Below are positions 48,801 through 51,800 of a DNA stretch of 64,000 bases, one piece after another. The position numbers are program-made. Positions within the stretch are counted from its first letter, which is position 1. Every line of letters begins with the position of its first letter. Origin of the DNA: Escherichia coli (GTDB taxonomy: Bacteria; Pseudomonadota; Gammaproteobacteria; Enterobacterales; Enterobacteriaceae); NCBI RefSeq assembly GCF_050920415.1, contig NZ_CP169309.1; one strand, given 5' to 3'.

Positions 48801-51800
48801 TTCACATACCTGGGTGATTCAGGCACTGGAATTTGTATGGCAAACACAGATGAACAAAAGAAAGCCATAAGGAAGATAAAATTTCGCACAGGACTTCCTC
48901 GCTTAATGAGCATTAGCATTCTGGCTAAAATCTATTGTTGGGGTTTTACTCACAGCGGCGACATCATCCGGTAAATAATTTTTCTTCGGTGTGTAATCCA
49001 TGACTTTTGCGGTTAACACTGCGGGGAATTTGCGGATAGTGACATTATATTGTTCGATGGCTTTAATATATCTTCCTCGCGCAACGGCAATTCGATTTTC
49101 ACTTCCTTCGAGCTGTACCATCAAATTTTGATAGAGTTCCTGGGCCTTTAGCTCAGGGTAACGTTCACTAATTATCGTTAACTGACCGAGAGTGCGAGAC
49201 ACCTGCGCCTGGGCCTGTTGCCAGACTTGTAATTTTTGTTCATCCCCCGGAGTTTGCTGAAGATCGCTACTGGCGCGATTAGCCTGACTACGTGCCAATG
49301 TTACGGCTTCCAGTACCTCTTGTTCATGGCTGGAATAACCTTTAATACTAGCGACAAGATTAGGAATAAGATCGGCGCGACGTTGATATTGATTTAATAC
49401 CTCAGACCAGGAAGCGTTAACCTGCTCATCATAGGTTTGAATATCGTTATATCCACAGCCTGATAAATTGAAAATAAATATAATTACGATGAATATTCTG
49501 AGCATGGTTAAATTCCTTTTAATTAATTCCTTAAAACATAATACGCCACTTCATTTTATTCTTTATGATCTAATCCACTTTTTGCCTTAAACCTGCCTGT
49601 AACAGAATGTTAATAAGACATGATTGTTGTGGCAGGATCTGCAATAATTAACAATTATCCACTTCACAGAGAATGCTATGCAGTACCCGATTAACGAGAT
49701 GTTCCAGACCCTGCAAGGTGAGGGTTACTTTACCGGCGTCCCCGCCATTTTTATTCGTTTACAGGGATGCCCGGTCGGCTGTGCCTGGTGCGACACCAAA
49801 CACACCTGGGAAAAGCTTGAGGATCGGGAAGTCTCCCTTTTCAGCATTCTGGCGAAGACCAAAGAGAGTGATAAGTGGGGGGCGGCGAGCAGTGAAGATT
49901 TGCTGGCTGTCATTGGTCGTCAGGGATACACCGCGCGGCATGTGGTGATTACGGGTGGTGAGCCTTGCATTCATGATTTGCTGCCACTGACTGACCTGCT
50001 CGAAAAGAACGGTTTTAGCTGCCAGATCGAAACCAGCGGTACTCATGAAGTACGCTGCACGCCGAATACCTGGGTTACCGTATCGCCAAAGCTGAACATG
50101 CGCGGCGGCTATGAAGTGTTGTCACAGGCACTGGAGCGAGCCAACGAAATCAAGCATCCAGTGGGACGCGTACGTGATATTGAAGCACTGGATGAACTAC
50201 TGGCAACGCTGACCGATGATAAACCACGAGTCATTGCACTGCAGCCAATTAGCCAGAAGGACGATGCCACACGTTTGTGCATTGAAACCTGTATTGCGCG
50301 TAACTGGCGTTTATCGATGCAAACACATAAATATTTAAATATTGCCTGATTAAACATTTATAAGCGTTATAAATGGGTGGAACCTGTAAAGACTTCCACT
50401 CATTTATATTCTTTGTCGCCTCTGAAAAAACTCCATTTTGCCCATTCTGGACTAATCATTATCATTCTCTACAAATTCTCTGGCGTTAATTTTTCGTTGG
50501 AGTGAAAATTATTGCAGTGAAGTTTGGTAGATTTTAGTGGGTATAGAGTTATTTTAAATATTTACTTTTTTAATCAATGGATTAAGTGTTCTTTAACATA
50601 ATGGATGTGTTGTTTGTGTGATCCTGTAAAGTTGGTAGATTGTGACTGGCTTAAAAAATCATTAATTAATAATAGGTTATGTTTAGAGAGTTCCCCACGT
50701 CAGCGGGGATAAACCGCTATACGAAGTTATTAGGTCCGAAGAGGAGTTGAGTTCCCCACGTCAGCGGGGATAAACCGTTTACGTGTTATCGCGCACCGGC
50801 GACGGTGTGGAGTTCCCCGCGCCAGCGGGGATAAACCGATTCAGCAAATAGCGAATTTCATAAATATGATGTGTTCCCCGCGCCAGCGGGGATAAACCAC
50901 CATATAACCCGTTATCTCTTTCTCAAGTTTTTATATTAGCTGTACTTGTAATAAGCAACATATCCACATAACACCTCATGTTCAAAATAGTTCCCCATGC
51001 CAGATAAGTTCACAATTATCGATACAAAAAATCAAATTTAATCAAAGTGTTATATGTATAATCCTTAAACCGTTAAGAAATTTTAATATATTATTTTTTT
51101 AATATTAATTAATGCCTGTTAATTTTTTCTTTAGAATAACAGTGTATTTTTTAAGCTTGTTATTCATTGATTAAGTAATAAATCTGGAAGTTTGTCTTTG
51201 TTTTGAGGCTAATGAGTGGTTTTACATAACCGCCTCTATACGCTGTTGATGAATAGTTCTTATGAATAAAGATATCCAGTTCATACTTTAAGTGAAAATT
51301 GATAAAGTGCGATTCGTATTGTCTTTTATTCTAAAGACATCGAGTGTAGTTAATATTCCTTGTAAAAACAGGGATAAACCGAACTAGTTAAAGTTTTTAT
51401 TATGTTCCCTGCATCAGCGGGGATAAACCGGACTTGTTATCATTTTTTAAGTTGTCGAACTTATGTTCCCCGCGCCAGCGGGGATAACCATTCAGGTATG
51501 TTCAGGCCGGGCAGTTTCCCGCCCGGTCTTCCTCACTTACGCATTCGACCAGCTCTGGATCGAATCTGCATTCCCCAACTCACCATGCATCACTTCATAC
51601 GATTTTTTCAGGATCACATCAGTGTGTTTGGTTAGGTCTTTGAAAATGCCTTTATTCATCGCGTCGTAGCGTTTGGCATTGCTCTCAATCGGCATAAAGA
51701 TATCTTTCACGCGAACCATTTTGTCGACAGCCGTTGCGTAATCCGGGTATAGCCCCAGACCTACCGCTGTATTAATCGCGGCCCCCAGACTTGCGCAACC

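What the first reader, a model, noticed from the sequence alone, without database searches (positions are those of the whole stretch)
50688..50899. CRISPR array whose two leader-proximal repeats carry the same two substitutions, one in the hairpin stem
Repeats 1 and 2 read GAGTTCCCCACGTCAGCGGGGATAAACCG versus the canonical GAGTTCCCCGCGCCAGCGGGGATAAACCG in repeat 3. The G10A change creates an A-C mismatch in the 6-bp crRNA stem and C13T alters the loop. Because acquisition duplicates the leader-proximal repeat, sharing of the variant by repeats 1 and 2 suggests at least one spacer was acquired after the mutation arose, or the variant spread by recombination. A weakened stem could affect Cas6e processing. 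The three 32-bp spacers are uncharacterised.
Basis: partly seen in the sequence, partly recalled or inferred. Interest (0 to 1): 0.5.

Follow-up and report, generated by a model that had tools for sequence, protein, structure and literature searches.

The report
E. coli CRISPR-II array, inherited repeat variant
This is the ordinary second CRISPR array of E. coli, whose two newest repeats carry a two-base variant found in about 2% of sequenced strains and copied each time a spacer is added. The newest spacer matches the lox site of P1-like phage-plasmids, so the locus is mildly informative rather than new.

Summary
Window 50688-50899 holds four type I-E repeats and three 32-nt spacers. Repeats 1 and 2 both read G10A + C13T, repeat 3 is canonical and repeat 4 is the degenerate terminal copy.

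The array is CRISPR-II (CRISPR2.3), between queE and ygcE. It is not the cas-adjacent array, and the window ends in cysJ, so no cas gene can be checked directly.

E. coli MFDS1022581 differs from the window by 2 SNPs in 64 kb plus exactly one 61-bp unit, spacer 1 and one variant repeat. It has an intact K-12-type cas operon.

The variant repeat occurs in 118 of 5,426 complete E. coli genomes, with a median of 4 copies and up to 10 exact copies. In all 15 arrays inspected it forms an unbroken leader-proximal block, so it is an established allele that still supports spacer acquisition.

Spacer 1 matches the lox site of P1-family phage-plasmids exactly, with an ATG PAM. Spacers 2 and 3 have no convincing target.

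The stem mismatch costs about 5.4 kcal/mol. In silico, repeat 2 is predicted to misfold against spacer 2. Cas6e processing remains untested.

Verdict: a known system, a recurrent allele, low-to-moderate interest.

The parts
49678..50349 (+). queE (ygcF), the upstream flanking gene of the CRISPR-II locus
   Evidence: This region is identical in sequence to the annotated queE of NZ_CP169399.1. The ORF is listed.
50350..50687 (+). Intergenic region with the AT-rich CRISPR2.3 leader, ending ...GGTTATGTTTAGA at the leader-repeat junction
   Evidence: Sequence read. The last ~80 nt are invariant in the 7 loci aligned. The consensus promoter scan was not above chance.
50688..50716 (+). Repeat 1 (leader-proximal), variant G10A + C13T
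50717..50748 (+). Spacer 1, CTATACGAAGTTATTAGGTCCGAAGAGGAGTT. It matches the lox site and the adjacent P4cre promoter region of P1-family phage-plasmids, with an ATG PAM.
   Evidence: 32/32 match in 3 phage records and 184 plasmid records, and 31/32 in reference P1 and P7. Protospacer context and PAM are shown. No other complete E. coli genome carries it as a spacer.
50749..50777 (+). Repeat 2, the same G10A + C13T variant
50778..50809 (+). Spacer 2, TTTACGTGTTATCGCGCACCGGCGACGGTGTG, target unassigned
   Evidence: The only phage hit is weak: 25/28, E=2, with a CCG PAM, in a Jilinvirus tail/baseplate gene. The identical spacer occurs in the CRISPR-I arrays of strains KE55 and GMF054.
50810..50838 (+). 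Repeat 3, canonical
50839..50870 (+). Spacer 3, ATTCAGCAAATAGCGAATTTCATAAATATGAT, target unassigned
   Evidence: No phage or plasmid hit. It is shared with the CRISPR-II arrays of MFDS1022581 and EC42405.
50871..50899 (+). Repeat 4, terminal degenerate repeat (A2T, G29A)
51402..51491 (+). CRISPR2.2 remnant: two degenerate repeats (5 mismatches each) around one conserved 32-nt spacer, 502 bp downstream of the main array
   Evidence: The same unit with the same spacer is present in 14 of the 15 variant-bearing loci and in L011. Only L008 differs, where a single degenerate repeat remains.
51537..53015 (-). ygcE, the downstream flanking gene of the CRISPR-II locus
   Evidence: This region is 100% identical to the annotated ygcE of NZ_CP169399.1.

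Best explanation
This is the CRISPR-II (CRISPR2.3) array of an E. coli type I-E system.

In an ancestor, the leader-proximal repeat of this array acquired G10A on a background that probably already carried the common loop change C13T. Cas1-Cas2 inserts each new spacer at the leader-repeat junction and duplicates the first repeat. Every repeat added after the mutation therefore inherits it, while older, leader-distal repeats stay canonical.

The window's lineage holds this allele at R1. After the mutation arose, it acquired one more spacer, spacer 1, taken from the lox region of a P1-like phage-plasmid next to an ATG PAM. That acquisition produced R1 and R2 as twin variant repeats.

Shown here: the array anatomy, the 61-bp difference from a near-isogenic genome, the population-wide leader-proximal blocks, the spacer target and its PAM, and intact cas genes in the near-isogenic genome.

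Inferred: the copying mechanism, taken from published type I-E adaptation work, and the direction of the change (gain here rather than loss in the relative).

Not shown: transcription of the array, Cas6e cleavage of the mismatched hairpin, and interference against P1.
For: (1) Locus identity. The region maps to queE-[array]-ygcE in 5,423 of 5,426 complete E. coli genomes.

(2) Near-isogenic comparison. MFDS1022581 differs from the window by 2 SNPs over 64 kb. Its array reads R1(variant)-spacer 2-R(canonical)-spacer 3-R(terminal), which is the window array minus spacer 1 and one variant repeat.

(3) Frequency. The variant 29-mer is present in 118 of 5,426 genomes, with a median of 4 and a maximum of 10 exact copies, all chromosomal.

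(4) Polarity. In 15 of 15 variant-bearing arrays the variant repeats form one unbroken block starting at the leader, from 1 to 11 repeats long, and older repeats are canonical. Strain 2020CK-00188 shows a nested sub-variant: C28T is confined to the five most leader-proximal variant repeats.

(5) Control. G10A without C13T occurs in only 3 genomes, one copy each. In the one inspected it is an internal repeat that was not propagated. C13T alone occurs in 231 genomes with up to 35 copies, again in leader-proximal runs.

(6) Spacer 1 origin. Spacer 1, together with the G before it, aligns 33/33 to P1-like plasmids. That fits the last repeat base coming from the PAM. ATG is a consensus interference-proficient PAM for this system (PMC6568314).

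(7) cas genes. The relative's cas3-casABCDE-cas1-cas2 genes are all annotated as intact. Its Cas6e is 96% and its Cas1 about 99% identical to the K-12 proteins in solved structures.

(8) Mechanism. A single repeat is necessary and sufficient for adaptation, and altered repeats are duplicated faithfully (Goren 2016, PMC5039180).
Against: There is no outgroup for the direction of change. MFDS1022581 could have lost spacer 1 by recombination between two identical variant repeats.

The variant occurs on flanking haplotypes that differ by 1.5-5%, and a strain with canonical repeats (EC42405) is closer to the window than other variant-bearing strains. Recombination must therefore have moved either the variant or the flanks.

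The terminal repeat of 2020CK-00188 also carries A10/T13, which simple leader-end duplication does not explain.

G10A lies in the IR1 motif CCCCGCG, which Goren et al. identified as a Cas1-Cas2 anchor. Multi-base IR mutations there cut adaptation about 100-fold. Reduced efficiency would be expected, but the single substitution was not tested.

The window itself contains no cas genes.
Confidence: 0.85

Rival explanations
1. The variant reached R1 and R2 by recombination or gene conversion, either between repeats or between strains' arrays, and not by acquisition-coupled duplication of a mutated first repeat.
For: Variant arrays sit on divergent flanks, and the closest flank to the window belongs to an array with canonical repeats. 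The terminal repeat of 2020CK-00188 carries A10/T13. Related arrays differ by internal spacer deletions, so repeat-to-repeat recombination is active. Spacer 2 occurs in CRISPR-I of other strains.
Against: All 15 arrays show a contiguous leader-proximal block. For the 6-of-10 arrays that arrangement is 1 of 210 possible placements. The nested C28T sub-variant is also leader-proximal. The near-isogenic pair differs by exactly one leader-proximal 61-bp unit that carries a spacer seen in no other genome.
Confidence: 0.1
2. The array is a decaying, non-functional relic. The stem mismatch is a neutral lesion in an unexpressed locus, and the one-spacer difference from MFDS1022581 reflects loss in that strain, not recent immunity.
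For: Some variant-bearing strains have lost the cas operon (2020CK-00188) or have a frameshifted cas3 (MDR_56). The hairpin is predicted to be weakened, and R2 is predicted to misfold. From general knowledge, E. coli type I-E is silenced by H-NS under laboratory conditions.
Against: The closest relative has a complete, unflagged cas operon. Spacer 1 is a perfect match to circulating P1-like plasmids with a functional PAM. Even under the loss scenario, spacer 1 must once have been acquired next to a variant repeat.
Confidence: 0.2
3. The two substitutions are sequencing or assembly errors.
For: None found.
Against: The same two bases occur in both repeats. The identical 29-mer is present in 118 independent complete genomes and in one metagenome contig.
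Confidence: 0.01

Closest known systems
E. coli CRISPR-II locus (CRISPR2.3 plus CRISPR2.2, between ygcF/queE and ygcE), type I-E, as described by Almendros et al. 2014 (PMC3903273)
   Same: Same flanking genes. The leader is on the queE side and its proximal ~80 nt are invariant. The repeat consensus is the same 29-nt sequence, with 32-nt spacers and a 61-bp period. The CRISPR2.2 remnant lies 0.5 kb downstream.
   Different: The spacer content is strain-specific. Spacer 1 is unique among 5,426 complete genomes. The two leader-proximal repeats carry the G10A + C13T allele.
Duplication of the first repeat during type I-E spacer integration, with IR1 and IR2 acting as anchor motifs for molecular rulers (Goren et al. 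2016, PMC5039180)
   Same: The new unit is 61 bp and sits at the leader end. The altered repeat is copied faithfully, and the base before the spacer matches the PAM's last base.
   Different: The natural allele changes one base inside the IR1 anchor CCCCGCG. That study tested multi-base IR substitutions, which reduced adaptation about 100-fold, and single substitutions only in IR2. The natural arrays show that this single IR1 change is compatible with at least 10 successive acquisitions.
C13T-only repeat allele of E. coli type I-E arrays
   Same: It is a loop substitution that also spreads as leader-proximal runs. It is found in 231 genomes with up to 35 copies. It is the probable background on which G10A arose.
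   Different: C13T alone leaves the stem intact at -15.1 kcal/mol. The double variant adds the stem mismatch, giving -9.7 kcal/mol.

Membership tests
Type I-E CRISPR array (E. coli CRISPR2 repeat family) | Direct repeats of about 29 nt matching GAGTTCCCCGCGCCAGCGGGGATAAACCG, at a 61-bp period with 32-nt spacers | tested here: met
   Four repeats with 0-2 mismatches, all 61 bp apart, against 0 expected by chance.
Type I-E CRISPR array (E. coli CRISPR2 repeat family) | Palindromic repeat core that forms the Cas6e hairpin: a 6-bp GC stem (7 bp with U5-A22) and a tetraloop | tested here: met
   R3 and R4 form the full stem (-15.1 kcal/mol). R1 and R2 keep the hairpin with one A-C mismatch (-9.7 kcal/mol). 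In full pre-crRNA context the R2 hairpin is predicted to form only about 5% of the time.
Type I-E CRISPR array (E. coli CRISPR2 repeat family) | Spacers derived from mobile elements, next to an AAG- or ATG-type PAM | tested here: met
   Spacer 1 matches the P1-family lox region 32/32 with an ATG PAM. Spacers 2 and 3 are unassigned.
Type I-E CRISPR array (E. coli CRISPR2 repeat family) | Cognate cas3-casABCDE-cas1-cas2 operon in the same genome | not testable with these tools
   The window ends in cysJ. The near-identical genome MFDS1022581 (2 SNPs in 64 kb) has the full operon with no pseudogene flags.
Type I-E CRISPR array (E. coli CRISPR2 repeat family) | Transcription from the leader and Cas6e cleavage into 61-nt crRNAs | not testable with these tools
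   Only thermodynamic predictions are available. The consensus promoter scan of the leader was not above chance.
E. coli CRISPR-II locus (CRISPR2.3 / CRISPR2.2) | Position between queE (ygcF) and ygcE, leader on the queE side, CRISPR2.2 remnant about 0.5 kb downstream | tested here: met
Repeat allele propagated by acquisition (first-repeat duplication) | Variant repeats are contiguous from the leader, older repeats are ancestral, and close relatives differ by whole 61-bp units at the leader end | tested here: met
   15 of 15 arrays fit. The near-isogenic pair differs by one leader-proximal unit. A non-propagated internal G10A singleton serves as a contrast.

The most novel reading that the evidence does not exclude
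The G10A/C13T repeat may be a functionally attenuated allele. The stem mismatch, plus context effects such as the predicted misfolding of repeat 2 against spacer 2, would reduce Cas6e capture. crRNAs from the newest spacers, including the anti-P1 lox spacer, would then be made or loaded poorly. The resulting interference would be weak, which could tolerate P1-like plasmids or favour priming over clearance. Alongside this, the near-isogenic pair would record a very recent natural spacer acquisition in E. coli, a species in which such events are thought to be rare.
Probability: 0.12. Interest if true: 0.5.

Novelty: already known. Interest (0 to 1): 0.22.

Why it matters
The practical value is modest.

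(1) The 118 genomes are a natural experiment. A single substitution inside the IR1 anchor motif of the type I-E repeat, which also mismatches the crRNA stem, has not prevented up to ten successive spacer acquisitions. This refines what the Cas1-Cas2 integrase tolerates.

(2) The window strain and MFDS1022581 differ by 2 SNPs and one spacer. They are a ready-made isogenic pair for asking whether native E. coli type I-E immunity works against P1-like phage-plasmids. The spacer's PAM and seed fall inside the lox core and the Cre-binding arm, so escape mutations there might be costly for the phage. That last point is inference.

(3) Blocks of repeat alleles give a relative time order for acquisitions, which is useful in CRISPR typing.

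None of this changes how the system is understood.

Tried and rejected
- Rfam scan of 50000-52000: only one sub-threshold chance hit (Chlorobi-1, 16.5 bits against a gathering score of 50) and no CRISPR-DR family reported.
- Sigma-70 and terminator scan of the leader and the inter-array region: 5 promoter-like sites against 4.6 expected and no terminators, so uninformative.
- Full-text search for the exact variant repeat on either strand: no paper. I could not establish whether this allele has been named in the literature.
- Scan of 100,044 species-representative genomes for the variant 29-mer: no match. It is therefore an intra-E. coli allele. The metagenome scan found one contig with the same array as MDR_56.
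- Search for a priming signature: I compared 16 variant-block spacers from other strains with phages. Only one weak hit (29/32) appeared, so nothing can be concluded about the interference competence of variant-flanked crRNAs.
- Test for a leader haplotype linked to the variant: none. The proximal ~80 nt are invariant.
- Spacer 2 versus the Jilinvirus ep3 tail/baseplate gene: 25/28 identity, E=2, PAM CCG. Rejected as a protospacer assignment.
- Papers on Cas6e and Cascade (PMC4288178, PMC5965381, PMC11317134): none reports a test of a mismatch in the stem.
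Full report
**What is in the sequence.** Window 50688-50899 holds four direct repeats at 50688, 50749, 50810 and 50871, each 61 bp from the next, separated by three 32-nt spacers. The canonical 29-mer with up to 3 mismatches has 4 hits, against 0 in 100 dinucleotide-preserving shuffles. R1 and R2 both read GAGTTCCCCACGTCAGCGGGGATAAACCG. R3 is the canonical GAGTTCCCCGCGCCAGCGGGGATAAACCG. R4 reads GTGTTCCCCGCGCCAGCGGGGATAAACCA, a degenerate terminal copy. 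The AT-rich leader ends ...GGTTATGTTTAGA directly before R1, so R1 and R2 are leader-proximal.

**Which array it is.** A 4-kb query around the array matches 5,423 of 5,426 complete E. coli genomes, always between queE (ygcF) and ygcE. The annotated best hit gives the gene order relA-mazG-pyrG-eno-...-queE-[array]-ygcE-...-queD-cysJ.
- This is the CRISPR-II locus, with arrays CRISPR2.3 and CRISPR2.2, as described by Almendros et al. 2014 (PMC3903273). It is not the cas-adjacent CRISPR-I.
- The CRISPR2.2 remnant is present 502 bp downstream, at 51402-51491. It has two repeats with 5 mismatches each around one conserved spacer.
- The window ends inside cysJ, so cysH and the cas genes are not in it.

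**RNA folding.** The canonical repeat folds at -15.1 kcal/mol. The G10A/C13T variant folds at -9.7 kcal/mol and keeps the hairpin, with A10-C17 as a 1x1 internal loop. G10A alone also gives -9.7, and C13T alone gives -15.1.
- I computed pair probabilities for the native pre-crRNA, 50640-50930. The four outer stem pairs form with probability 0.82 in R1, only about 0.05 in R2, and at least 0.96 in R3 and R4.
- Reverting A10 to G in silico restores R1 and R2 to at least 0.93.
- R2 fails because the variant-specific CACGU can pair with ACGUG at positions 4-8 of spacer 2. That alternative fold scores -24.3 kcal/mol, against -21.7 for the best fold that keeps the hairpin.
- This is an equilibrium, protein-free prediction. 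Co-transcriptional folding and tight Cas6e binding could override it.

**Test of the acquisition inference.** The closest complete genome is E. coli MFDS1022581 (NZ_CP169399.1).
- Across the whole 64-kb window it differs by 2 SNPs plus one 61-bp indel.
- Its array reads R1(variant)-spacer 2-R(canonical)-spacer 3-R(terminal). That is the window array without spacer 1 and without one variant repeat.
- This is the difference expected from one integration at the leader-repeat junction with duplication of the first repeat. The mechanism is established for this system. Goren et al. 2016 (PMC5039180) state that a single repeat is necessary and sufficient for adaptation, and their mutated repeats were duplicated faithfully.
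- The reverse event, loss of the unit in MFDS1022581 by recombination between two identical repeats, cannot be excluded. Even so, it requires that spacer 1 was once acquired next to a variant repeat.

**How common the allele is.**
- The variant 29-mer occurs in 118 of 5,426 complete E. coli genomes (2.2%). All copies are chromosomal, with a median of 4 and a maximum of 10 exact copies per genome.
- It is absent from the representatives of 100,044 bacterial and archaeal species. One metagenome contig carries it.
- I read 15 variant-bearing CRISPR-II arrays: the window, L001, L004-L009, L014 and L019-L024. In every one the variant repeats form a single unbroken block starting at the leader, 1 to 11 repeats long, and the repeats behind the block are canonical.
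- For an array with 6 variant repeats out of 10, that arrangement is 1 of 210 possible placements.
- Strain 2020CK-00188 adds a nested marker. A further substitution, C28T, is confined to its five most leader-proximal repeats.
- As a control, G10A without C13T occurs in only 3 genomes, once each. In the one inspected it is an internal repeat of a CRISPR-I array, and the repeat closer to the leader lacks it. That is an in-place point mutation that was never copied.
- C13T alone occurs in 231 genomes with up to 35 copies, again in leader-proximal runs. G10A most probably arose on a C13T background.

**Origin and spread.**
- The arrays fall into at least five spacer groups: the large MDR_56/APEC-like group, 2020CK-00188, 2014C-3075, the window with MFDS1022581, and a single-repeat locus.
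- Their flanks differ by 1.5-5%. A strain with canonical repeats that shares spacer 3 (EC42405) is closer to the window than other variant carriers.
- The proximal ~80 nt of the leader are invariant, so no leader haplotype tracks the allele.
- The terminal repeat of 2020CK-00188 also carries A10/T13. This points to occasional recombination within an array.

**cas genes.**
- MFDS1022581 has cas3, casA-E, cas1 and cas2 with no pseudogene flags, and a CRISPR-I array whose leader-proximal repeats are canonical.
- Its Cas6e is 96% identical to the K-12 CasE of the Cascade crystal structures, and its Cas1 about 99% identical to K-12 Cas1.
- The same Cas6e and Cas1-Cas2 must therefore serve a canonical array and a variant array.
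- Other carriers differ. 2020CK-00188 has lost the operon apart from a cas3 fragment. MDR_56 has the alternative type I-E cas variant with a frameshifted cas3. This fits the published view that CRISPR-II evolves independently of cas-module exchange.

**The spacers.**
- Spacer 1 matches 32/32 in 3 phage records and 184 plasmid records, all P1-like phage-plasmids of E. coli and Salmonella. It matches 31/32 in reference P1, P7, RCS47 and SJ46.
- The protospacer is ...ATAACTTCGTATAATGTATG|CTATACGAAGTTATTAGGTCCGAAGAGGAGTT|. It starts inside the 8-bp lox core, covers the second 13-bp Cre-binding arm, and runs into the P4cre promoter.
- The PAM is ATG, a consensus interference-proficient PAM for this system (PMC6568314).
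- The alignment to P1-like plasmids extends one base into the repeat's final G. That is expected when the last repeat base comes from the PAM.
- The sequence after the lox arm is native P1 context, and the spacer matches wild plasmids better than laboratory P1. It is therefore not a cloning-vector artefact.
- No other complete E. coli genome carries spacer 1 in an array.
- Spacers 2 and 3 have no convincing protospacer. The best hit for spacer 2 is 25/28 in a Jilinvirus tail/baseplate gene next to CCG, which I reject.
- Spacer 2 is identical to a spacer in the CRISPR-I arrays of KE55 and GMF054. Spacer 3 is shared with EC42405.

**Relation to known mechanism.** G10A lies in the IR1 motif CCCCGCG. 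Goren et al. identified this motif as one of two anchors for the Cas1-Cas2 rulers. Multi-base mutation of either inverted repeat reduced adaptation about 100-fold. The single G10A change was not among their mutants. The natural arrays show that it allows repeated acquisition, at an unknown efficiency. I found no published test of a stem mismatch for E. coli Cas6e, so processing competence remains open.

**Verdict.** The locus is the long-known E. coli CRISPR-II array, and the variant is a recurrent, acquisition-compatible allele, so the finding is largely ordinary. Three points remain mildly interesting:
- a natural demonstration of tolerance at one position of the IR1 anchor and crRNA stem;
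- a near-isogenic strain pair that differs by one anti-P1 lox spacer;
- a context-specific predicted misfolding of repeat 2.

Noticed in passing
window 51353-51491: This is the CRISPR2.2 remnant. Two degenerate repeats (51402-51430 and 51463-51491, 5 mismatches each) flank a 32-nt spacer that is identical in all but one of the loci inspected (a single degenerate repeat remains in L008). A still more degenerate repeat-like copy lies at about 51353-51381, offset by 49 bp. The 502-bp gap contains AT-rich stretches resembling the CRISPR2.3 leader (50551-50574 versus 51080-51103).
   Followed up: partly
window 50778-50809; L012 2501-2593; L013 2501-2532: Spacer 2 of this CRISPR-II array is identical to a spacer in the CRISPR-I (cas-adjacent) arrays of strains KE55 and GMF054. 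There it is flanked by GTG-type repeats of the other I-E variant, and in KE55 it is tandemly duplicated. This means either independent acquisition of the same protospacer or transfer between arrays.
   Followed up: partly
window 50757-50785: Both variant bases (A10 and U13) fall in CACGU, which is perfectly complementary to ACGUG at positions 4-8 of the adjacent spacer 2. The alternative helix is predicted to beat the repeat hairpin by 2.6 kcal/mol, and the R2 hairpin probability is about 0.05. The same junction exists in MFDS1022581. This is probably coincidence, because the allele occurs with many other spacers.
   Followed up: yes
L004 2075-2895 (E. coli 2020CK-00188 CRISPR-II): The array has 11 variant repeats, with a nested C28T sub-variant in the five nearest the leader. 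It also has a tandemly duplicated spacer, two repeats whose last base is T instead of G, and a terminal repeat that carries A10/T13. The strain has lost its cas operon apart from a cas3 fragment.
   Followed up: partly
window 1-64000: The whole window differs from E. coli MFDS1022581 (South Korea, animal-source food) by 2 SNPs and the 61-bp spacer unit. No other complete genome reaches 99% identity over the 4 kb around the array.
   Followed up: yes
window 45941-48890: The TPM-domain (ygcG-like) genes between eno and the LemA-family gene are annotated as three pseudogenes (internal stop, frameshift, truncation) in the sequence-identical relative.
   Followed up: no
window 5702-6111: There are four tandem tRNA-Met genes, 110 bp start to start, as annotated in the near-identical relative.
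   Followed up: no
L005, L006, L009, L014, L019-L024: The largest variant-bearing spacer group (MDR_56, APEC and turkey or chicken isolates, river-water isolates) shows different internal deletions of variant-block spacers in different strains. This indicates frequent recombination between identical repeats.
   Followed up: partly
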